Shown: positions 5,441 to 14,694 of the stretch, one piece after another
Layout of the letters: every line of letters starts with the position of its first letter
Numbering within the stretch: position 1 is the stretch's first letter
Virus record (IMG/VR): IMGVR_UViG_3300037790_000129
Coordinates: 3,502 to 67,501 of that record
DNA length: 64,000 nucleotides
Origin: a virus
Lineage: Duplodnaviria; Caudoviricetes
Strand: one strand, 5' to 3'
The notes under the pieces: generated by a model
What the model saw: only the letters and a program-made list of their open reading frames with translations
The model's database searches: none
What the model was told of the DNA's origin: nothing
Program-made: the position numbers and the translations under genes

Positions 5441-5469
5441 AAAAAAAGCGTTCAGGATTTGAACGCTTT
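5441..5469 (-). terminator. Intrinsic terminator inside the early operon
   Basis: AAAGCGTTCA-ggatt-TGAACGCTTT stem with a U-run on the minus strand. Confidence 0.75.
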
Positions 5470-5907: not shown

Positions 5908-6294
5908 TTAGTCTTTATGAGTTAATCCCATAGCATCGCCATTGTTGCTTATGGTTTCGTTAATAGTTTCTTTTGTGTAGTCCTCGTTAAGCGAAATATC
6001 TAATACTTGCATCGCTTCAACGTCTGTGCAATTAAACTTGGATTTAACATCATTTATTTGCCAAAGATTTTCTGTGTAATATCCTGCTTCTGATAGTGTT
6101 TTTTTCGCTTGTTCAATTCGGTCTTTTGGATTCATAAAATCCATTGTAGCATCATCTTCTTTTTTGATCTGCCAGTTAACAGGGAATTCTACTCCTGATT
6201 TAAATCCGTTTTCAATATGCTTGTGTATTTCATATAACACATGGTTAATATTTTGCTCGTCTTTTTCTTCTAAATGGATGGTTAATATTTTCAT
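5908..6294 (-). CDS. Hypothetical phage protein
   Basis: 128-aa ORF preceded by the AATCCATACAC motif. Confidence 0.6.
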   Translation of the reverse strand: MKILTIHLEEKDEQNINHVLYEIHKHIENGFKSGVEFPVNWQIKKEDDATMDFMNPKDRIEQAKKTLSEAGYYTENLWQINDVKSKFNCTDVEAMQVLDISLNEDYTKETINETISNNGDAMGLTHKD

Positions 6295-6306
6295 CTTGTG
6301 TATGGA

Positions 6307-6774
6307 TTAAATGTTAGTTTGTTGTTTTGACTGAAAATTTTCGATTGCTTTTTTATAGATTAATAACTCGGTTTTAGTTTGGTCTATCGAAATTTCAAAA
6401 TTCGGAATTTCTCCTCCATAATCTCTTTGTAAAAGTTGATCGGCAGAATCTCCTTCTTCAAACTCTTCATCTACCAACTTATCTAAGTCGTTTAACCTTG
6501 CTATCATATCACAACTAGAATAGTTAGGATAATGCTCTTCAACAAAATCCCAAGCGGTTTTTTCTTTCCATTCTTTTTTGTAAGAAGTGATTACAAAAGT
6601 TCCGTTAATTGCTGCTTCAGTTTTAATGGCTTGTATGATTTCTCTTTCGCTAAGCCCATAAAAGAAAATTTGATCGTCTATCTCTAAAACATCATCGTAC
6701 TCGTAAACTAGATAGTTTTCAAATTCTGTTTTATCGTCTGTGAAATATCCGTTTATACTGTATAGTCCTTTCAT
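6307..6774 (-). CDS. Acidic hypothetical protein
   Basis: 155-aa D/E-rich ORF preceded by a motif variant. Confidence 0.6.
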   Translation of the reverse strand: MKGLYSINGYFTDDKTEFENYLVYEYDDVLEIDDQIFFYGLSEREIIQAIKTEAAINGTFVITSYKKEWKEKTAWDFVEEHYPNYSSCDMIARLNDLDKLVDEEFEEGDSADQLLQRDYGGEIPNFEISIDQTKTELLIYKKAIENFQSKQQTNI

Positions 6775-6836
6775 TTTGTGTATAGATTTATTGTATGTAG
6801 GGTTTTGAAATTATCGCCACCCCTACACACTAAGTT

Positions 6837-8426
6837 TTAAAATAATGTTGATTGTGATTTTTCTAATTGTAATGGTTCGGGTTTTTGATTCTGCTTTTTT
6901 TGTTTGTCAGATTCTCTTCGTTTTTTCTTGTGTTCTTCCCACTTGGTTCGCTCATCATCAGGGAGCCAATTTTTTGTGGCGCAAGCTGTCATATTAAATA
7001 AATCCCAAAGCTTTTTATCTTTAAAATAAATATGAACTGTACCTTTTTTAAAGAACTTTATTTTAAAGTATGCGCTTTCACAAGTATTATCGAACTTATC
7101 GCCCGTTTTTATTTTGCCTAATTGATTAAATTTTTCTTCTAGTGCATAGCTTAAAGTGCTATAATCTGTTAGGGTGTGTCCTGCTAAATAAGCAATACAT
7201 TTATCTATATCGTTGTAAATATTGTTTGAATCCCACGGGAGTGAAAAATTATCTCCATATTCTTTTAGGCTGTGAGCATCAGAATAAGCTCCGTATTTAA
7301 CGCCATAAGGTAAAATTACCTTTCGGTTTATTTTAAATCTGTCGTTAGTTTTCCATCCCTCAACGTGGCTTCTGTTTTCTTTCCAGTACTCTGTCAACTT
7401 ATCAAAAACATCTTCAACGGCTTGATCCCAAATATTTTTTCGGTTGTTCATTATCATTTGAAAAAATGAGGCTACATTTTCTTTAGTGAACGACATGTTG
7501 GATTGCTGCCTAATAAAAGCTTCAAAATTACTACTAACTTTAGCGCTCATATATTTTTGAACGTCAAGCTCTTTTATCACCTTTCGCCACATGTGCTTTT
7601 TCATTTGCATTGAAAGATGGTTGTATTTTTGTTGCGCTGTTCCTTTGGATAATTCAAAACTATCTTCTTGGTAAAAACCTTCACCTTTAAGAAACATTTT
7701 TTTATAGTGTAAATATTTTTCTCTAGCTTTTAAATACTCAGCATATTCTTTTCTTACTTCTTCATACCTGATATTTAGATTGCCGATTAAATCTTCTCTT
7801 GCTATTTGGTTGTTTACAAAATCGAAATCGAAGTTTAGTTTTTCTTCTTCGCTTTTATCGAAATCAAAATCAAATTTTTCATCCTCTTTGTTGATGGTTA
7901 ATCTAACTAAGGCAATTTCAACATTTGTCTTTCTCTCGGCACTTTTAAATTCAGATTCTAAAAACTCATAACTCCCGTACTGGTTTATTTTGTCGAGTAG
8001 TATTTTTCTTTGTTTGGTGTATGGGTTTCGTATGGTTTCTGCATTGAGTAGGCAAACTATATCTGTTTGTTTTGCTACTTCAATAGCTTTTAATAAATGC
8101 TCATCTCCGTTGCTAAATGGTGGATTCATTACAATTAAATCGAAATAGTAATTCTCATTAAATTGTAGAAAATCGTTACCAATTATAGCAACTTCTTTTT
8201 CATATAGAATTGATTGTAAATCTTGATTCAACTCTATTGCATAAATCTCTCTATTGCTGTGGGTGTGTTCTTGTATGAAGTCTATTATATCTCCCTTACC
8301 TGCGCTTGGTTCTAGTATGCAAAGATCATCTAGTTTATTGTTGTATCGTCTAGAACCCTGAATGTAGGGTTCTAGCATTTTTCTGATTAGAGTTTTTGGC
8401 GTTGGGTAAAATTCTTTTGAAAACAT
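6837..8426 (-). CDS. N6-adenine-type SAM-dependent methyltransferase with DUF4942-like C-terminal domain
   Basis: FYPTP, LEPSAGKG (motif I), DLIVMNPPF (motif IV); C-terminal VEDVFDKLT...GWKTNDRFKINRKVIL and KFFKKGTVHI patterns. Confidence 0.85.
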   Translation of the reverse strand: MFSKEFYPTPKTLIRKMLEPYIQGSRRYNNKLDDLCILEPSAGKGDIIDFIQEHTHSNREIYAIELNQDLQSILYEKEVAIIGNDFLQFNENYYFDLIVMNPPFSNGDEHLLKAIEVAKQTDIVCLLNAETIRNPYTKQRKILLDKINQYGSYEFLESEFKSAERKTNVEIALVRLTINKEDEKFDFDFDKSEEEKLNFDFDFVNNQIAREDLIGNLNIRYEEVRKEYAEYLKAREKYLHYKKMFLKGEGFYQEDSFELSKGTAQQKYNHLSMQMKKHMWRKVIKELDVQKYMSAKVSSNFEAFIRQQSNMSFTKENVASFFQMIMNNRKNIWDQAVEDVFDKLTEYWKENRSHVEGWKTNDRFKINRKVILPYGVKYGAYSDAHSLKEYGDNFSLPWDSNNIYNDIDKCIAYLAGHTLTDYSTLSYALEEKFNQLGKIKTGDKFDNTCESAYFKIKFFKKGTVHIYFKDKKLWDLFNMTACATKNWLPDDERTKWEEHKKKRRESDKQKKQNQKPEPLQLEKSQSTLF

Positions 8427-8453
8427 AGCTTAGTGTGTATGGATTATTGATTT

Positions 8454-8696
8454 TTATATCTTGTTTCCTGAAGTTGTTAAAGCTTCGATTCCTTTAGCGT
8501 ATTTTATTGCTTCGTTCTCGTCTTTAAACTCTTCAACTGTGTAATCACAATTTGCAGCGAACGCAATAAAAACGCCTTTATCTAAAAAATAACCGCTGAA
8601 ATTATTTCCGCTCGGGTGATTGTATTTACCCGTTTTTTCTTGATGCTTAAACACTTCTTTTAGGTGTTTTTTGGCTGTTGTACCTGAAATTAACAT
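8454..8696 (-). CDS. Hypothetical protein
   Basis: 80-aa ORF in early operon. Confidence 0.55.
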   Translation of the reverse strand: MLISGTTAKKHLKEVFKHQEKTGKYNHPSGNNFSGYFLDKGVFIAFAANCDYTVEEFKDENEAIKYAKGIEALTTSGNKI

Positions 8697-8740
8697 ACTG
8701 ATAGTGGTATTGGTTTATGAATATTTAATTACTGGGAATA

Positions 8741-8769
8741 AAAAAAGCTACCCGTTTAGGTAGCTTTTT
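8741..8769. terminator. Bidirectional intrinsic terminator inside the early operon
   Basis: AAAAAGCTACC-cgttta-GGTAGCTTTTT. Confidence 0.78.
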
Positions 8770-8790
8770 AATTCTTGAGGTGTGTTTTTT

Positions 8791-9258
8791 TTAAGTCCAG
8801 TACTCTTTTACTCTTGAGCCTTTTTCTCTTATTGCTTCTTGCATTTCTCCTGAAGTAACGGTAAAAAAGTTTTCTTTCCATTCTTCAAAAGTTTCTGCTT
8901 CGTTTTCCCAATTCTCGGTTGATTCCTTGTTATTTAAAAATTCGTTAACCTCTTCTTGGCTGTCAAATTCGCCCACTACTTTGTTGTTGTTAAGCGTGTC
9001 CACTAAAAACAAAGTTTCTATTTTGTAGTTGTAATTTTCATTCACAAACTTTTTAATCTCTTCGATATGAGAATTTGCTTTTTCTTCGTTGTTTTCAAAT
9101 TCTTCAATTTCTTTATCTGATAAATAGAATAACCAACCTTGATCTGTTTCTTCTGCATTTTCCAATAAATATTCAGATACGGTTTGATCGCTTTCTTTTA
9201 TAAATTTTTCATTGTCAAATGCTACGCTATCTAAAAGTGTTTTAATGTTATTTTTCAT
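8791..9258 (-). CDS. Highly acidic hypothetical protein
   Basis: Manual count about 39 D/E versus about 16 K/R in 155 aa. Confidence 0.65.
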   Translation of the reverse strand: MKNNIKTLLDSVAFDNEKFIKESDQTVSEYLLENAEETDQGWLFYLSDKEIEEFENNEEKANSHIEEIKKFVNENYNYKIETLFLVDTLNNNKVVGEFDSQEEVNEFLNNKESTENWENEAETFEEWKENFFTVTSGEMQEAIREKGSRVKEYWT

Positions 9259-9328
9259 GTGTATTGATTTTTAAATTGTGTTTTAAGCCGAAAGCCCTTT
9301 GAAGTTATCGCCAGGCACTCGGAATTAT

Positions 9329-9580
9329 TTATAAGTTGTGATAAAATTCTGCATCTGATATTTCTTTTTCGACTTGTTCTAATGGAGTTGAAAAAATTAC
9401 GTTGTTGTAATCTGAAAAAGATAATTGATTTCTTCTAGTGTGATGCCCTTCTCTAATTGTAGACAAGGTAAAACCATTATCGCTTTCGTAGATAGCTACA
9501 TAATTTCCGCCGTTATCTTGTTGAATCATTTTAGCTATTTCTTCTTTTCTTCTTTTTGCTTCTTTGATTAATTCTTTCAT
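9329..9580 (-). CDS. Hypothetical protein
   Basis: 83-aa ORF between two conserved-loop hairpins. Confidence 0.6.
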   Translation of the reverse strand: MKELIKEAKRRKEEIAKMIQQDNGGNYVAIYESDNGFTLSTIREGHHTRRNQLSFSDYNNVIFSTPLEQVEKEISDAEFYHNL

Positions 9581-9716
9581 AATTTCCGAGTATTAAATTT
9601 TAGTTCTACTATCCTAGTTTGTATGGATGTTTACTAATTGGTAAATATAGTGAATTTTGCCTTGTGTTTTGTGAGGTTTGAAGTTATCGCCCCTCAATCC
9701 AAAACACAACTTTATT

Positions 9717-9965
9717 TTATAGGTTTTTAAGTAATATTATTAAGTCCTCTAAACTCTCGTTAAAGACGCTTTGATATAACCCTCTTTCGTCTATAAAGGT
9801 TAACTCATCGTTTACTATTACTAATTCAACTTTATCGCTTAAACTTACTTTAATGGCTTTATTGTTGATATAGTTAGATTCGTACTTGCTTTGATTTACT
9901 TTTGATTTAAGTTCGTTTAAAACTCGCATCTCTAGATCTCTGTATTGCTTTAAAAAGTTTTCCAT
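9717..9965 (-). CDS. Hypothetical protein
   Basis: 82-aa ORF. Confidence 0.55.
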   Translation of the reverse strand: MENFLKQYRDLEMRVLNELKSKVNQSKYESNYINNKAIKVSLSDKVELVIVNDELTFIDERGLYQSVFNESLEDLIILLKNL

Positions 9966-9967
9966 TT

Positions 9968-10285
9968 TTATAGGTTTTTAATGATGTTGCAAATATCTCT
10001 GTATGTTGCTTGTCCGCTTCCGCTCATCCTTTGGGCATCGAATCCAAGTTCAAAAATCAATTCTTTTAATTTTTCAAGATTGATGTTTTTAGGTAGTTGT
10101 ACGCCTAAATCAATTTGCGGTTCTTCATCATCTAATTGGCTGCTTGAAATTATATTTAAATTTTCAAGTGCTATATCGTTGTAATCTCCATCTTCTTCGC
10201 TTCCATCATTCGGGATTAAAAAGAAGTTTAGTTCTGTATCTTCGGGCGCTATCTCTAGCATTTTATTAAATTCTTTTAGTTTCAT
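9968..10285 (-). CDS. Acidic hypothetical protein
   Basis: 105-aa ORF preceded by AATCCATACAC. Confidence 0.6.
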   Translation of the reverse strand: MKLKEFNKMLEIAPEDTELNFFLIPNDGSEEDGDYNDIALENLNIISSSQLDDEEPQIDLGVQLPKNINLEKLKELIFELGFDAQRMSGSGQATYRDICNIIKNL

Positions 10286-10381
10286 CGTGTATGGATTTAT
10301 ATTTATACTACCTCAAGGCGTATTTAAACGCCCTGAACGCTCCAAGCTTAAAGCCTTTTTATACTCGCTTGGTCGAGTTGG

Positions 10382-10600
10382 TTAAATTAAAGACCATATT
10401 AAATCTTCCTCATCTACGCCTGAATTTAGGGCAATGTCTGAAATATCACTACTTCTAAAATTATCGCTGCCTAGTGCATCCCAAGCCATTTCGTTTGCTC
10501 GGCTTAGGTTTTCTTCGTACTGCTTTTTTTCTTCTCTAATTTCTTTTAAAACTTGGTCGCTAATTTTTTTAGCTTCTTCCCAATTAATAACTTGTTGCAT
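10382..10600 (-). CDS. Hypothetical protein (acidic C-terminus)
   Basis: Likely start MQQVINW at 10600; the track start at 10630 lies in a hairpin. Confidence 0.55.
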   Translation of the reverse strand: MQQVINWEEAKKISDQVLKEIREEKKQYEENLSRANEMAWDALGSDNFRSSDISDIALNSGVDEEDLIWSLI

Positions 10601-10671
10601 AATTTTTCTAAATTTTAAAGCCGTTAACATTACGCTAACGGCTTGGTGATGGTTTTAAATTTGATAGTGAT

Positions 10672-11973
10672 TTATAGGTTTAAAGCTGCCTTTACTTCTT
10701 CTGTTTTTGCTTTCGGGAATATCCATCCCGCTCCGCATTTTAACCTAAAATTAAACCTACCGCCTAAGCTTTTAAGCGTGTCTTTAAGTGGCTTTGTTTC
10801 GCCTATTACTGCAATCGCTTTATCGCTATACTCTACCAGTTCAATATTTAAATCTTCGTTTGTGCTTTCTGTGATGGTTGTTTTTTCTTCTTCATTAGGT
10901 ATAAAGCATAAGCCATTAGCTGCAGCAATATATATCTCCTCCCTATTTTCTTTTTTGGTGAGGTCAAAATATTTAAGCTTAGTAACTTTAAAGCCAAACC
11001 ATTGCTCCGTTCCTAAAAAATAGTTAGGCAAATAACTATGTCCTGAATTGTACTCGGTTACTTCCTCGTATTTGTTGTCCGTGTTGTTGTCTGCTCTTTC
11101 GGGGAAATCTTTTGTGTGTTCAAAATTTAACGCTGCTTTTCTTAACTCTTGCATGTTGTTTCTGTCGTTACGGCTGAACGCTAAAAATATCCTTTGGCTT
11201 ACGCTTGTGCTGAAATAATCTGTCATGCTGTCGCTGTCGTTTTGGTAGTTATCCGCTACGATTACGCATTTTGCCCAATCGGGTATATTTATTAATTTTT
11301 TCCCCTCTTCGATTTTGCCTTGCCTTGCTTGAGCCTTTAAAATTTGCTCGCTTTCCTCCCGTTGCTGCTCTTGTTTTTTCTTCTGCTTAGCTTCTATTAC
11401 TAGATTGTTTAAGTCGTCTTGTGAGCCTTCAAAATTAAAATCAGGTTCAAAGTATATGCCGATCCCAAACTTTTCACTAAATGGCTTTGGCGTGTCCTCT
11501 CTTTCTAGTTCTAAGGTGTCTTTTTCAACGGTCAAATATTTTGTTCCCCATTCGGTTTGCTCAATCTCGTAAACTATTCGATTATTGCCTTTGGTTCCTT
11601 TGGTTTCTCCGTAGCCATCTAAAAATAAAATGGTGCCTATTTTTGGTCCATCTGTTTTGGCTTTGTTCTCGGGTAGTTCTCCGCTTTCTTTTAGTCTGTC
11701 AAATTCGGCTAATGCTTTTACATGTTGTTCTTTTACGGTGTTTTCTGTCGCTCTCTTTTTTTCGCTTATTAATGTGATTGATGGACTTGTAAACATTCCA
11801 AAGGTAAACCCGCCATTTGGTAATAATTCGCCCGCTTGTGCCGTTGTTTGTAGTTTTCCATTACTTCTTTTCATCGTGCAAATTTTCCAGTCATAGCCGT
11901 TAAATTTCTCAATGCTTTCAAGTTCCCAACCTCCGCGAAATGATTTACTAGGATTCAAATTTAAAGTTTTCAT
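10672..11973 (-). CDS. Multidomain, polyvalent-protein-like early protein
   Basis: Internal DSDSMTDYF motif (LPD-type) and C-terminal YSDKAIAVIGETKPLKDTLKSLGGRFN..L.CG.GWIF module; preceded by AATCCATACAC. Confidence 0.6.
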   Translation of the reverse strand: MKTLNLNPSKSFRGGWELESIEKFNGYDWKICTMKRSNGKLQTTAQAGELLPNGGFTFGMFTSPSITLISEKKRATENTVKEQHVKALAEFDRLKESGELPENKAKTDGPKIGTILFLDGYGETKGTKGNNRIVYEIEQTEWGTKYLTVEKDTLELEREDTPKPFSEKFGIGIYFEPDFNFEGSQDDLNNLVIEAKQKKKQEQQREESEQILKAQARQGKIEEGKKLINIPDWAKCVIVADNYQNDSDSMTDYFSTSVSQRIFLAFSRNDRNNMQELRKAALNFEHTKDFPERADNNTDNKYEEVTEYNSGHSYLPNYFLGTEQWFGFKVTKLKYFDLTKKENREEIYIAAANGLCFIPNEEEKTTITESTNEDLNIELVEYSDKAIAVIGETKPLKDTLKSLGGRFNFRLKCGAGWIFPKAKTEEVKAALNL

Positions 11974-12042
11974 GTGTGTATGGATTTTATTTGTTAACCT
12001 CCGCCCAATTAAGGCGGAACGCTTGCAGCTTAATAACCTTTT

Positions 12043-12237
12043 TTAAGTCGCTGCATCGACTTTGTTTAACTCTTTCAACTGCTCGGGGAACTCAACGCCT
12101 TGAGTGTTAAAAGCTTCTCTAGTGTCTGCCGTTACTTTCCCGTATATTTTTAAATCTGTTTCAACAAAAAATAAAAGTGTTTCGTTTATCTCTTGCTTTA
12201 ACTCCTGAAGTATTTTTAATTTCTTGCTTTGCTGCAT
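12043..12237 (-). CDS. Hypothetical protein
   Basis: 64-aa ORF coupled to the upstream gene. Confidence 0.55.
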   Translation of the reverse strand: MQQSKKLKILQELKQEINETLLFFVETDLKIYGKVTADTREAFNTQGVEFPEQLKELNKVDAAT

Positions 12238-12587
12238 TATTTCCAGATTTTTATAGGTTGCCTTTTATTGCCTTTCAATAATTCGTTTAACGCTTCATCT
12301 ATTGAAGTAGTAATTTTATACACGTGCAGTTCGTTTTTATTTTTTCCTGCTTGGTACTCTGATACCTCGAAAAAATTATCTTTAGGATTTCCAAAATAAT
12401 TTAACATTAGACCATCAAAAAAATCTTTTCGTTTTCCGTTGGTCTTGTCTGTGGATGGTTCGAAAATAAAATCTTTGCCTAGCTTACTGGCGGTGCCATC
12501 CATCCCTTTGGATTGAAAAAAATAAATACATTTGTTTTTAAACTCTTCAAAAGTTGTTTTTTGCTCTAGGTCTAAAATCGTTTGCAT
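12237..12587 (-). CDS. Hypothetical protein
   Basis: 116-aa ORF preceded by AATTTAAAACCATCACC. Confidence 0.6.
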   Translation of the reverse strand: MQTILDLEQKTTFEEFKNKCIYFFQSKGMDGTASKLGKDFIFEPSTDKTNGKRKDFFDGLMLNYFGNPKDNFFEVSEYQAGKNKNELHVYKITTSIDEALNELLKGNKRQPIKIWK

Positions 12588-12612
12588 GGTGATGGTTTTA
12601 AATTAATGTTTG

Positions 12613-12792
12613 TTAGTCTAAATATATTTCAGGTTGTGAGCTATAAAAACAATTATATAATGTGGTAAAATCTTTTTTAGATTCAACGGCTAAAGCTTTT
12701 AATTTCTCTAAAACTTCATCAAATTTTGTCTTATCCGTTAAGAACTCTTTTTTTAATGAATTAATCTTAATTATTATTTCTTTTGTACTCAT
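12613..12792 (-). CDS. First ORF of the early operon (59 aa, not in ORF track)
   Basis: Manual translation MSTKEIIIKINSLKKEFLTDK...IYLD; preceded by AATCCATACAT. Confidence 0.55.
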   Translation of the reverse strand: MSTKEIIIKINSLKKEFLTDKTKFDEVLEKLKALAVESKKDFTTLYNCFYSSQPEIYLD

Positions 12793-13145
12793 AATGTATG
12801 GATTAATATTTGTTGATACCTCGAAAGGTTGCGAACCTTTGCCGTTAACTCTGTTTTAGTGTATGAATTAAGGTGAACCCGCTATACTTGGCACGAGGTA
12901 ATTATCTTTTTTATAGTTGTATTAATCCGCCCAACTTTGGCGGGGTGCGTATCTTTTTAAATATATTATCGCTCTACATTTCACAAATTAAACGGGATTT
13001 CCACCCGATTAAATAAGCTGCCTTAATAGCTGCCTAAATAACTAATTGAAGCGGTAGCGTTATTTTATATTTATACTCAATACGCTTATGGCTGTGCGGA
13101 ATCCGTCCGACCTTAAAGCCGTTGCGGTAATTCCTACCATATACA

Positions 13146-13163
13146 CAATATTTCAATGAACTT
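13146..13163 (-). promoter_or_regulatory. boxA-like antitermination element in the early leader
   Basis: AAGTTCATTGAAATATTG about 35 nt downstream of the promoter, between a small hairpin and TGTGT. Confidence 0.45.
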
Positions 13164-13201
13164 AAAAAACTTGGCTAAAATTAGCGGCCGTTTTGTGATT
13201 A

Positions 13202-13233
13202 CAAATATATAACAATATTGTAATAAAATGCAA
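13202..13233 (-). promoter_or_regulatory. Leftward Bacteroidota sigma70-type promoter (early operon)
   Basis: TTG-N21-TATATTTG fits the TTTG/TTG...TAnnTTTG consensus. Confidence 0.7.
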
Positions 13234-14241
13234 CAATAATGTAAAAAAATTATAACAGAAAAAACGCAAATAACTCCTAAAGATAGTAAATACAAGGCTT
13301 TACAAAGTATGTTAAAATTTTGTTAGAGGTTAAAAAAATACAATATCAATGCAACAAAATTGTAATTTATACCAAAACTCAAGAACTTAAAGCAGTCACG
13401 AAAACAAACTAATAATAACAACCAAGCAGCAACCCAAACCAAGCAAGGCAATAAGCTAAAGCAATTAAACATAAAAGAATAATAAATAAAGTTTATTGTA
13501 AATTGGTTAGAATGGAGGGAGGCTGTAAGCAAGCCAAGCACCTAAGCGAAGTAATTTTTTAAAGTCGATCAACAACTAAAAAAAACGGGTTCGAATCTAT
13601 AAAGGATTACACAACAAGCTAATAAAATACTGACAGTCAACCAGTTACAAAGTTAATATAGTTATTTTAAGCAATATTTTACCAGCAAATAGCCGTCCTA
13701 AAAAATCAACCCTAAAAAAACCAGTACTAAGCAAGCGAGTAAAAATAAAAACGAGTTAACACCAATCAAAAAGCTAAAAAATTTGATTGAACCCGGATAA
13801 ACAACACCCCATACCAATAAAAAAAACGATTTCGGAACTGGGCGCACCCGCCCGCATACTAGGTATCCGCCCCCACACTACGCACATACAACACATTTTT
13901 TTTCTATGGATAGATATATTCACACTAAACCATTAGTCCATTAGGGCCTATTCTATTGAACAACTAAGCGATGCGATTATGTTGTAATAATGATATAAAT
14001 TATTCGTGCTGATATAAAAACTCTATGGGTAAATGATTTTTAAGATTAAGTGTTTGGATTAGATTTTAAGTAACTCATTACGTTTAATGATTATATAGCC
14101 TTTTATTTTCATTAAGGATTGATTATCAAACAATTACTAAAAAGTTAGTGCATACCACGGGAATAATTAGTTCCCACCACGTACATTAACTGTTAACATA
14201 ATTTTAACATAAGGCAACAATCGACTAACAAATAAATAATG

Positions 14242-14504: not shown

Positions 14505-14576
14505 AGCGAGGTAGAGCAGAGGTAGCTCGGAAGGCTCATATCCTTCAGGTCGTTGGTTCGAATCCAACTCTCGCTT
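14505..14576 (+). tRNA. tRNA with CAT anticodon (Met; initiator-like body with atypical determinants)
   Basis: Acceptor AGCGAGG/TCTCGCT, D arm GAGC/GCTC, anticodon arm GAAGG-CTCATAT-CCTTC, T arm GTTGG-TTCGAAT-CCAAC; CCA not encoded. Confidence 0.9.
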
Positions 14577-14622: not shown

Positions 14623-14694
14623 GCCTTACTAGCTCAATTGGTTAGAGCGTCTGGATTAACTAGGAGGTTCAAGGTTCAAATCCTTGGTAAGGTT
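14623..14694 (+). tRNA. tRNA-like gene with a shortened (5-nt) anticodon loop; pseudo-tRNA or mimic, Asn-like
   Basis: Acceptor GCCTTAC/GTAAGGT, D arm GCTC/GAGC, T arm CAAGG-TTCAAAT-CCTTG, but anticodon arm TCTGG-ATTAA-CTAGG. Confidence 0.7.

What the first reader, a model, noticed from the sequence alone, without database searches (positions are those of the whole stretch)
6793..9709. Three intergenic stem-loops with unrelated stems but the same large loop GGCGAUAA(C/U)UUCAA
Seen (minus-strand RNA): 6793-6830 GUGUGUAGGG-[loop]-CCCUACAUAC; 9287-9322 CCGAG.GCCU-[loop]-AGGGC.UUCGG; 9662-9709 UUGUGUUUUG..UGAGG-[loop]-CCUCA.CAAAACACAA. A shorter variant AAAUGUA-GAGCGAUAA-UAUAUUU lies at 12959-12981 in the leader. 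Different stems with one conserved 14-nt loop is the signature of a protein- or RNA-recognised element. I know no described family with this loop. Candidate roles: nut/put-like antitermination site, processing site, repressor-titrating decoy, or ssDNA hairpin acting on injected DNA.
Basis: partly seen in the sequence, partly recalled or inferred. Interest (0 to 1): 0.78.

Follow-up and report, generated by a model that had tools for sequence, protein, structure and literature searches.

The report
Capped RNA hairpins between phage genes
The three hairpins are real members of a widespread RNA hairpin family, absent from Rfam, with one conserved 15-base tip; many unrelated phages place it just after highly expressed genes (most often the capsid gene), and the same tip also caps domain VI of one class of group II introns.

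Summary
Exact copies of GGCGAUAA(C/U)UUCAA plus a following A lie on the minus strand at 6804-6818, 9298-9312 and 9677-9691, each closed by an unrelated stem. The "shorter variant" at 12959-12981 is not a member.

The tip is not peculiar to this phage. Pattern scans and two covariance models found over 60 independent hairpins in IMG/VR contigs with consensus R-G-M-G-A-U-N-R-Y-H-U-C-A-A-A and covarying stems.
- They are intergenic and on the sense strand, mostly 4-15 nt after a stop codon.
- In 12 of 28 cases they directly follow the major head protein gene, across at least 7 PHROG families.
- The same tip caps domain VI of one group II intron class (Rfam RF02004 type).
- It is nearly absent from cellular genomes otherwise, and Rfam 15 has no matching family.
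- After one capsid gene family, close relatives carry a plain GC-rich hairpin at the same spot.

My best reading is an intercistronic mRNA hairpin that protects or defines 3' ends and lowers downstream expression, with a structured cap. Here it punctuates an early operon that also holds two Pistol ribozymes and an intrinsic terminator. What reads the cap is unknown. A phage-specific nut/put site, a repressor decoy and an ssDNA role are disfavoured.

The parts
6793..6830 (-). Capped hairpin 1. The stem is GUGUGUAGGG(G)U / A(A)CCCUACAUAC and the 15-nt cap GGCGAUAAUUUCAAA lies at 6818->6804. It starts 6 nt after the stop codon of the 529-aa DNA methyltransferase/DUF4942 gene (6837-8426) and ends 18 nt before the ATG of the 155-aa ORF 6307-6774.
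   Evidence: z -3.7; 39.2 bits; 34.6 bits; gene identity.
9287..9322 (-). Capped hairpin 2. The stem is CCGAGUGCCU / GGGCUUUCGG, with a U.G closing pair and one U.U mismatch. The cap GGCGAUAACUUCAAA lies at 9312->9298. It starts 6 nt after the stop of the 83-aa ORF 9329-9580 and ends 28 nt before the ATG of the 155-aa ORF 8791-9258.
   Evidence: z -2.1; 38.5 bits; 35.2 bits.
9662..9709 (-). Capped hairpin 3. The stem is UUGUGUUUUG-GAU-UGAGG / CCUCA-CAAAACACAA (5 bp, a 3-nt bulge, then 10 bp). The cap GGCGAUAACUUCAAA lies at 9691->9677. It starts 7 nt after the stop of the 82-aa ORF 9717-9965 and ends 81 nt before the ATG of ORF 9329-9580.
   Evidence: z -3.9; 40.6 bits; 37.6 bits.
10306..10378 (-). 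Context, not a member: a Pistol self-cleaving ribozyme in the next intergenic spacer upstream in the same operon, between ORFs 10382-10630 and 9968-10285.
   Evidence: Rfam RF02679, 66 bits against a gathering score of 34.5.
11993..12061 (-). Context, not a member: a second Pistol ribozyme in the same operon, just upstream of the 433-aa ORF 10672-11973.
   Evidence: Rfam RF02679, 63 bits.
8741..8769 (-). Context: an ordinary intrinsic-terminator-like hairpin, AAAAAGCUACC-UAAAC-GGGUAGCUUUUUU, after ORF 8791-9258. It shows that the operon also uses plain hairpins at gene junctions.
   Evidence: Read from the sequence. The only Rfam hits here are weak, terminator-driven ones (Phe_leader).

Best explanation
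The three elements are RNA hairpins of a widespread family that I did not find described. The family is defined by a 15-nt apical module, R-G-M-G-A-U-N-R-Y-H-U-C-A-A-A, on top of a stem of any sequence.

**Shown.**
- The family is real. The stem covaries and the tip is held constant in unrelated phages.
- It sits on the mRNA-sense strand in short intergenic spacers just after stop codons, and it is strongly enriched right after major capsid protein genes.
- It is a feature of mobile elements (phages, one group II intron class, one mobilisable element), not of host genes.
- At an orthologous site it is interchangeable with an ordinary stable hairpin.

**Inferred.**
- It works in the transcript as an intercistronic 3'-end element. 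It would block 3'-to-5' decay or define a processed 3' end of the upstream cistron, and lower expression of what follows. Where a U-run follows the stem, it would act as a terminator.
- The conserved tip would be a compact structured cap: stacked purine-purine pairs G1.A15, G2.A14 and M3.A13, then a G-C/A-U(/U-A) mini-helix, then a U-turn triloop. Such a cap could let a short stem behave like a long one, or be read by a conserved partner that is still unknown.
- In this phage, three such hairpins, two Pistol ribozymes and a plain terminator together cut the early operon into units with different fates.
For: - **Family and covariation.** Exact-tip hairpins with unrelated stems of 5-15 bp occur in many IMG/VR contigs. 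A scan that fixed only the tip and three closing pairs gave 58 unique sites, and the unconstrained pairs 4, 5 and 6 from the cap pair in 83, 62 and 59% against 37.5% expected. Pair counts beat every shuffle and every slid register.
- **Tip conservation found without using the tip as a query.** Domain VI tips found through Rfam RF00029 read GGCGAUAACUUCAAA, GGAGAUUACAUCAAA, GGAGAUCAUCUCAAA, AGAGAUAACAUCAAA, GGAGAUUGCAUCAAA and GGAGAUGACUUCAAA, on covarying stems. A capsid-gene orthologue found by protein homology has GGAGAUAAUUUCAAA.
- **RNA sense strand.** Flanking ORFs are (+,+) in 29 cases and (-,-) in 1. G-U pairs outnumber A-C pairs 21 to 5.
- **Position.** 30 of 53 hairpins start 4-15 nt after the stop codon, and the next start codon is mostly 15-30 nt downstream.
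- **Gene association.** The upstream gene is a major head protein in 12 of 28 cases, from PHROGs 14242, 1328, 283, 1357, 212, 10 and 1646. One case follows a phi29-type SSB gene.
- **Interchangeable with a plain hairpin.** After one capsid family, L444-L448 carry the cap. The 88%-identical relative L449 has a 9-bp G-C hairpin with loop CUAAAAA at the same place, and relatives at 52-54% identity have other plain hairpins.
- **Mobile-element restriction.** In 151 Bacilli genomes, 7 had hits and all were intron domain VI tips. Only 2 of 151 Bacteroidota genomes had a hit.
- **Some are terminator-like.** A minority are followed by U-runs, for example L146, L334, L294, L387, L407 and L426.
Against: - No transcript data exist for any member, so 3'-end formation, stabilisation and attenuation are all inferred from position.
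- A simple stabiliser does not need a 15-nt conserved tip. Ten nearly invariant bases across phyla point to a specific partner or fold that this explanation does not name.
- The three window copies follow small early genes and a methyltransferase, not obviously abundant products.
- Only about 8-20% of members have a U-tract, and none in the window does, so termination cannot be the general role.
- Host genes almost never use the cap. That is odd if it simply exploited a general property of host RNA decay.
- The role of the same cap in intron domain VI is unknown and may be unrelated.
- The inner pairing of the cap is unproven, because G4-C12 and A5-U11 never vary.
Confidence: 0.45

Rival explanations
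1. The cap is a binding site for a protein that regulates transcription or translation. This could be a host factor common to all bacteria, such as NusA, a ribosomal protein or an RNase, or a protein carried by the mobile elements. It would act as an operator, an antitermination or pause signal, or a nuclease entry site. The stem only presents the cap.
For: - About ten nearly invariant bases sit on freely varying stems.
- The hairpins lie 15-30 nt before the next start codon.
- The distribution spans phages of hosts with very different GC content and ribosome-binding sites, CPR bacteria and Firmicute introns. This fits a universally conserved partner.
Against: - No shared protein was identified in the loci, and the flanking genes differ.
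- Host genomes almost never use the cap.
- A plain hairpin replaces it in a close relative.
- A lineage-specific N/nut or put system cannot explain presence in many unrelated phages.
Confidence: 0.2
2. The cap is an RNA-RNA docking module, either a receptor or a kissing loop. In group II introns it would anchor domain VI to another intron domain or to the maturase. In phage mRNAs it would dock to another RNA, such as a GNRA loop, a tRNA or a second copy, and fold the transcript.
For: - It is a class-wide feature of domain VI tips in RF02004-type introns, where terminal modules commonly make tertiary contacts (general knowledge of group II introns).
- A U-N-R turn presents the variable triplet.
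- Purine-rich internal loops are typical receptors (my own knowledge).
Against: - Most phage loci hold a single copy and no conserved partner sequence was seen.
- The variable triplet drifts within one hairpin lineage with no obvious compensating change.
Confidence: 0.13
3. The hairpins are RNA decoys or anti-defence elements of mobile elements. They could mimic the domain VI tip to titrate reverse-transcriptase-like defence proteins, or mimic an anticodon arm to divert anticodon nucleases. High copy number would come from co-transcription with the most abundant messages.
For: - The cap is restricted to mobile elements.
- The tip is identical to that of a retroelement RNA.
- It is placed behind the most strongly expressed genes.
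- The loop A5-U6-N7-R8-Y9-H10-U11 has U at the position of tRNA U33.
Against: - This is purely analogical, with no defence or anti-defence gene association tested or seen.
- A plain hairpin substitutes for it at an orthologous site.
- The "anticodon" varies, and the stem next to the loop has only one or two Watson-Crick pairs.
Confidence: 0.07
4. The cap is itself a cleavage site. It would be a very small self-cleaving motif or the substrate of a trans-acting ribozyme or RNase, doing the same job as the two Pistol ribozymes that occupy equivalent junctions of this operon.
For: - Two Pistol ribozymes lie in neighbouring spacers of the same operon.
- The distribution is sporadic, cross-phylum and limited to mobile elements, like that of small ribozymes (my own knowledge).
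- The architecture of an internal loop plus a short helix plus a U-turn loop resembles ribozyme substrate hairpins (my own knowledge).
Against: - A self-cleaving tip would cut domain VI of the introns that carry it.
- No other hairpin locus holds a known ribozyme: 28 loci, about 280 kb.
- 21 conserved or structured nucleotides is smaller than any known natural self-cleaver.
- A plain hairpin can replace it.
Confidence: 0.06
5. The elements act as single-stranded DNA hairpins, in replication, packaging or on injected DNA.
For: G-T pairs are tolerated in DNA hairpins. One cellular copy lies near a relaxase gene.
Against: - The orientation follows transcription, not genome position.
- The same module functions inside an intron RNA.
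- The hairpins sit between a stop codon and the next start codon.
- There is no strand or position pattern expected of origins or pac sites.
Confidence: 0.03

Closest known systems
Tip of domain VI in RF02004-type (group-II-D1D4-5) bacterial group II introns
   Same: The same 15-nt module, GG(C/A)GAU-NRY-HUCAAA, closed by a short covarying helix, occurs in introns of Bacillaceae and Clostridia genomes and in phage-borne introns.
   Different: - The window hairpins are free-standing.
- They have no domain V, no bulged branch adenosine, no splice site and no reverse transcriptase nearby; Rfam finds no intron in the window.
- The role of the tip in the intron is itself not described in anything I could find.
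Conserved RNA elements and plain stem-loops downstream of phage major capsid genes (for example the Mu-gpT-DE motif of Rfam), and 3' stabiliser or attenuator hairpins in general
   Same: - The position is immediately 3' of the capsid gene, on the sense strand, and the effect would be cis-acting on the message.
- A plain hairpin occupies the same site in close relatives.
   Different: - There is no Rfam match at all.
- The defining feature here is the tip, not the stem.
- The element is also used between early genes and in introns.
Intercistronic processing signals of phage early operons (RNase III sites of T7/T3; self-cleaving ribozymes such as the two Pistols in this operon)
   Same: They are hairpins in the spacers of a polycistronic early transcript, alternating with Pistol ribozymes in this window.
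   Different: - Stems of about 10-15 pairs with a near-terminal internal loop do not look like RNase III substrates of two helical turns.
- No cleavage has been shown.
- Other members show no link to ribozymes.
[quoted passage not shown]
   Same: The first five bases, R-G-M-G-A, fit AGNNA, and the last five, U-C-A-A-A, begin with U and end with A.
   Different: The invariant G at position 2 of the second T-loop is C in every member, and position 1 of the first is G rather than A in 69 of 70. There is also no intervening helix.
Lambda nut boxB and HK022 put RNAs
   Same: They are small RNA hairpins in phage operons whose loop, not stem, is recognised.
   Different: Those are lineage-specific, sit in leaders, and have GNRA-like pentaloops or two-stem folds. 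This tip is shared by unrelated phages and sits after stop codons, mostly of late genes.

Membership tests
Any Rfam 15 family | A covariance-model match at the gathering score, or at least at E <= 10 | tested here: not met
   No hit overlaps the hairpins in window 6000-14000 at E <= 10, in two small outside loci at E <= 10, or in 40 outside loci at gathering score.
Capped-hairpin family defined here (model R2) | A stem of at least 4-5 pairs directly closing the 15-nt module RGMGAU-NRY-HUCAAA | tested here: met
   The three window sites score 34.6-37.6 bits with R2 (E of about 1e-6) and 38.5-40.6 bits with R1. Both models included these sites, so the independent support is their identity to outside members.
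Capped-hairpin family defined here (model R2) | Sense strand, intergenic, shortly after a stop codon | tested here: met
   The window copies start 6, 6 and 7 nt after stop codons of minus-strand ORFs.
Intrinsic (Rho-independent) terminator | A stable hairpin immediately followed by a U-tract | tested here: not met
   None of the three window hairpins is followed by a U-run. Only about 8-20% of family members are.
Group II intron domain VI | It lies 3' of a domain V hairpin and carries a bulged branch adenosine before the 3' splice site | tested here: not met
   The window has no RF00029 or RF02004 match. Only the apical module is shared.
[quoted passage not shown] | Six invariant residues, A-G-N-N-A and U-G-N-N-A (PMC3664808) | tested here: not met
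   The second pentad is UCAAA in all 70 aligned members, with C where G is required. The first pentad starts with G in 69 of 70.
Pistol ribozyme | A match to RF02679 (hairpin, pseudoknot and second stem) | tested here: not met
   Only 10306-10378 and 11993-12061 match. The three hairpins do not.
Lambda-type nut (boxA/boxB) or HK022 put | A lineage-specific leader element read by the phage's own N protein or by RNA polymerase, with a boxB GNRA-like pentaloop | tested here: inconclusive
   The sequence and position do not fit, and the tip is shared by unrelated phages. Antitermination activity itself cannot be tested with these tools.
RNase III processing site (T7 type) | About two helical turns of double-stranded RNA with a central internal loop, cleaved by host RNase III | not testable with these tools
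   Stems total about 9-15 pairs and the internal loop is near-terminal. This does not look like a typical substrate, but cleavage was not assayed.

The most novel reading that the evidence does not exclude
The 15-nt cap is an autonomous RNA signal that works independently of the host and is carried only by mobile genetic elements. It would then be a new class of mRNA punctuation that sets the ratio of capsid protein to downstream products. In this phage it would do a job equivalent to that of the neighbouring Pistol ribozymes.
Probability: 0.25. Interest if true: 0.8.

Novelty: new variant of a known kind. Interest (0 to 1): 0.62.

Why it matters
- **Capsid gene dosage.** Hairpins after capsid genes are assumed to set the large excess of capsid protein over its neighbours, but they are usually treated as generic. 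This family has a precise, recognisable tip reused by many unrelated phages, so the assumption can be tested with point mutants.
- **Link to group II introns.** The same tip caps domain VI of a group II intron class. This connects phage mRNA architecture to a ribozyme domain whose apical part has no assigned role, so a structure or partner found for one context would inform the other.
- **Annotation.** A covariance model of this family would label a recurrent intergenic feature in viral metagenomes and help locate capsid genes and operon junctions.
- **Engineering.** If the cap lets short stems act like long ones, it is a compact part for RNA design.
- **This phage.** It shows an early operon punctuated by three different devices: Pistol ribozymes, capped hairpins and a plain terminator.

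Tried and rejected
- **Fourth copy at 12959-12981.** Rejected: the fold is no better than shuffles and neither model finds it.
- **Chance.** Most of the 114 IMG/VR exact 14-mer hits are chance matches, including one large cluster inside a coding sequence of an abundant gut phage. They were separated from true members by stem geometry and intergenic position. GC-rich genome hits inside ORFs (L324, L327, L329 and others) were treated as chance.
- **Known RNA family.** Nothing in Rfam at relaxed thresholds.
- **Literature.** Sequence strings and several concept searches found nothing relevant.
- **Double T-loop or tRNA-elbow binder.** Attractive at first (GGCGA / UUCAA), but U10 is variable and the required G is a C.
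- **Similarity to the RfaH ops element (GGCGGTAGnnTG, 8 of 12).** Dropped, because positions 7-10 are variable and the stem would have no role.
- **Intron homing target.** The 5' exon of one such intron has no capped hairpin upstream.
- **Backup stop codon.** U6-N7-R8 spells a stop codon in 86% of caps, but it shows no frame preference relative to the upstream ORF.
- **General link to ribozymes.** None was found in 28 other loci.
- **Close relatives of this phage.** A protein-seeded search with the methyltransferase found none, and megablast against cultured phages found none.
- **A cultured phage carrying the element.** BLAST with a short hairpin and tblastn with two capsid proteins gave nothing usable. 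The Serratia phage OS31 hit is not a member.
- **Complementarity to 16S rRNA, recalled from memory.** Not pursued. It is bipartite, in a base-paired region, and within chance.
Full report
**1. The observation**

The minus strand of the window carries exact copies of GGCGAUAA(C/U)UUCAA at 6805-6818, 9299-9312 and 9678-9691. There are no others in the 67.5-kb virus record the window comes from. Each copy is followed by an A and is closed directly by a helix of unrelated sequence:
- GUGUGUAGGG(G)U / A(A)CCCUACAUAC
- CCGAGUGCCU / GGGCUUUCGG
- UUGUGUUUUG-GAU-UGAGG / CCUCA-CAAAACACAA

The folds beat dinucleotide shuffles, with z = -3.7, -2.1 and -3.9. Each hairpin starts 6-7 nt after the stop codon of a minus-strand ORF and ends 18, 28 or 81 nt before the next ATG. 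The "shorter variant" at 12959-12981 folds no better than shuffles (z = +0.29), and neither covariance model finds it. I do not count it as a member.

**2. The element is a widespread family, not a feature of this phage**

- A scan of IMG/VR for the exact 14-mer returned mostly chance hits. It also returned hairpins with the same geometry (stem | 15 nt | stem) and quite different stems of 7-15 pairs, for example L142, L077, L005, L031, L110 and L128.
- Adding one closing pair to the pattern enriched for true members.
- A pattern that fixed only the constant parts of the tip and three G-C closing pairs, and left four central bases free, gave 70 loci and 58 unique sites. Pairs 4, 5 and 6 from the cap, which the pattern did not constrain, form in 83, 62 and 59% of sites against 37.5% expected.
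- On a 70-sequence alignment the outer helix shows changes on both sides at all eight pairs and beats all 500 shuffles and all slid registers. Part of this signal comes from how I selected sequences. The figures do not.

Conservation of the tip was also seen without using the tip as the query:
- Capsid-gene orthologues found by protein similarity carry GGCGAUAACUUCAAA or GGAGAUAAUUUCAAA on covarying stems.
- Intron domain VI tips found through Rfam RF00029 carry six different versions that agree at positions 2, 4-6 and 11-15.

The consensus is R-G-M-G-A-U-N-R-Y-H-U-C-A-A-A. Weaker model hits show that positions 1 and 15 can both be U.

**3. What the "loop" probably looks like**

The constant bases flank a variable centre.
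- ViennaRNA pairs G4-C12 and A5-U11 in all three window copies.
- U6 faces A10 in 27 of 70 members, and U or C in the rest.
- That leaves G1 G2 M3 opposite A15 A14 A13, a purine-rich 3x3 internal loop, and a triloop N7 R8 Y9 that begins with a U-N-R turn.

This inner fold is an inference. The two inner pairs never vary, so covariation cannot test them.

[quoted passage not shown] That module requires U-G-N-N-A in the second loop, and every member here has U-C-A-A-A. I rejected it.

**4. Where the family sits**

- **Strand.** Among intergenic members, the flanking ORFs are both on the hairpin's strand in 29 cases and both on the other strand in 1. Seven members lie between convergent genes. G-U pairs outnumber A-C pairs 21 to 5 in the five pairs nearest the cap. 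The structure therefore belongs to the sense-strand transcript.
- **Spacing.** Thirty of 53 members start 4-15 nt after a stop codon. The next start codon is usually 15-30 nt beyond the hairpin.
- **Upstream gene.** It is a major head protein in 12 of 28 independent cases, drawn from at least seven PHROG families. A phage has one such gene among dozens. Other neighbours include a phi29-type SSB gene (upstream), a Mu-like transposase, a DNA ligase and a GIY-YIG endonuclease (downstream), and small early genes.
- **Copy number.** Most loci hold one copy. L133 and L404 hold two or three. Three copies within 3 kb, as here, is at the high end.
- **U-runs.** A minority of members are followed by U-runs and look like intrinsic terminators, including copies in CPR bacterial genomes. 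The window copies are not followed by U-runs.

**5. The link to group II introns**

In phage-borne introns (L020, L037 and relatives) and in introns of Bacillaceae and Clostridia genomes, the same module is the tip of domain VI. It sits just after a domain V matched by Rfam RF00029, in introns whose 5' part matches RF02004. The short helix under the tip covaries between intron lineages: AUCC/GGAU, AGGG/CCCU, AGAU/GUCU and AGCC/GGCU.

- A model search of 151 Bacilli genomes found the module in seven, and every hit was such an intron.
- In 151 Bacteroidota genomes only two had a hit.
- One further cellular copy lies beside a relaxase gene.

The module is therefore a feature of mobile elements and is hardly used by host genes. 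The window hairpins are not intron fragments, since there is no domain V, branch site or intron match. One intron I checked is not inserted behind such a hairpin.

**6. Interchangeability**

After the capsid gene of one family (PHROG 1357), five relatives carry capped hairpins with three different tips. A relative with an 88% identical capsid protein has a plain hairpin of nine G-C pairs with loop CUAAAAA at the same position. Relatives at 52-54% identity have other plain hairpins. So the site needs a stable hairpin, and the capped form is one way to provide it.

**7. How it most likely works**

- **Shown:** it is a selected RNA structure on the message, placed at the 3' end of cistrons, preferentially the most highly expressed one, and replaceable by a plain stable hairpin.
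- **Inferred:** it protects or defines the 3' end of the upstream message and reduces what reaches the downstream genes. Where a U-run follows, it acts by termination. The cap is a compact fold that strengthens a short stem or is read by a conserved partner.

In this window the early operon (about 13.2 kb down to 5.4 kb, minus strand) contains, in order:
1. a Pistol ribozyme (11993-12061)
2. a 433-aa ORF with no family match
3. a second Pistol (10306-10378)
4. capped hairpins 3 and 2, flanking an 83-aa ORF
5. a plain terminator-like hairpin (8741-8769)
6. the methyltransferase gene
7. capped hairpin 1

The hairpins thus occupy the same kind of junction as the ribozymes. Twenty-eight other hairpin loci hold no Rfam ribozyme, so that pairing is particular to this phage.

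I put 0.45 on this reading. The main weakness is that a stabiliser does not need ten constant bases, and that host genes do not use the cap. Both points leave room for a specific partner.

**8. Rivals**

- A protein-binding operator or pause site: 0.20.
- An RNA-RNA docking module, as it may be in domain VI: 0.13.
- A decoy against RT-like or anticodon-nuclease defences: 0.07.
- A cleavage site or tiny ribozyme: 0.06.
- An ssDNA hairpin: 0.03.

**9. Novelty**

No Rfam 15 family matches. Full-text searches for the sequence and for the concept found nothing. The paper library lacks most subscription journals, so absence there is weak evidence.

Notes from this scan on other genomes (e1-5818090, e1-5826724) describe early-operon hairpins in other phages that display AUAACA, some within twister ribozymes. 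The window's tip contains AUAAC, but in this family those positions are the variable ones. I treat the resemblance as an untested lead.

I class the finding as a new variant of a known kind: conserved cis-acting hairpins at phage gene junctions. The unexpected part is the shared module with a ribozyme domain.

Noticed in passing
window 10306-10378 (-) and 11993-12061 (-): Two Pistol self-cleaving ribozymes (Rfam RF02679, 66 and 63 bits) lie in the same early operon. They coincide with two of the three sites that another first-stage note (e1-5933457) described as a 'hairpin - GAGGU - AAUCCAUACA - AUG' leader. That architecture is at least partly the Pistol fold.
   Followed up: partly
window 10672-11973 (-): A 433-aa ORF lies between the two Pistol ribozymes, together with the 82-aa ORF 10382-10630. 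It has no Pfam or PHROG match. Ribozyme cleavage would release it on its own RNA segment.
   Followed up: no
window 8741-8769 (-) and 5445-5469 (-): Ordinary intrinsic-terminator-like hairpins with U-runs lie inside the same minus-strand gene block, so read-through or several transcription units must exist.
   Followed up: no
window 6775-6790, 8427-8450, 9259-9275, 9610-9625 (-): The motif AATC(C/A/T)ATACA(C/A) recurs shortly before the start codons of several early genes. Another first-stage note (e1-5933454) saw it too. It is not part of the capped hairpins.
   Followed up: no
L020, L037, L090, L160, L161, L171, L183, L388 (IMG/VR contigs): Complete RF02004-type group II introns with a reverse-transcriptase ORF are carried by viral contigs. 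All have the same domain VI tip as the window hairpins.
   Followed up: partly
L247 3810-3844 (-) (a Minisyncoccia genome): A DUF805b RNA (Rfam RF02914, 49 bits) lies about 150 nt downstream of a capped, terminator-like hairpin on the same strand in a CPR bacterium.
   Followed up: no
Cap positions 6-8, family-wide: U6-N7-R8 spells UAA, UAG or UGA in 61 of 71 unique caps (37.5% expected for U-N-R). It has no frame preference relative to the upstream ORF. I have no explanation.
   Followed up: partly
L127, L132, L136, L137, L263, L403, L406, L413, L422: One hairpin lineage keeps nearly the same bulged stem (GGUAGUCGGG / CCCGUUACC). It occurs in several phage contigs and a Rikenellaceae genome, while the variable cap positions drift (AACU, AGCA, AAUC, AACC; M = C or A). 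This is a natural mutational series for the cap.
   Followed up: partly
window 14505-14576 and 14623-14694 (+): Two tRNA genes lie at the start of the rightward gene block (Rfam RF00005).
   Followed up: no
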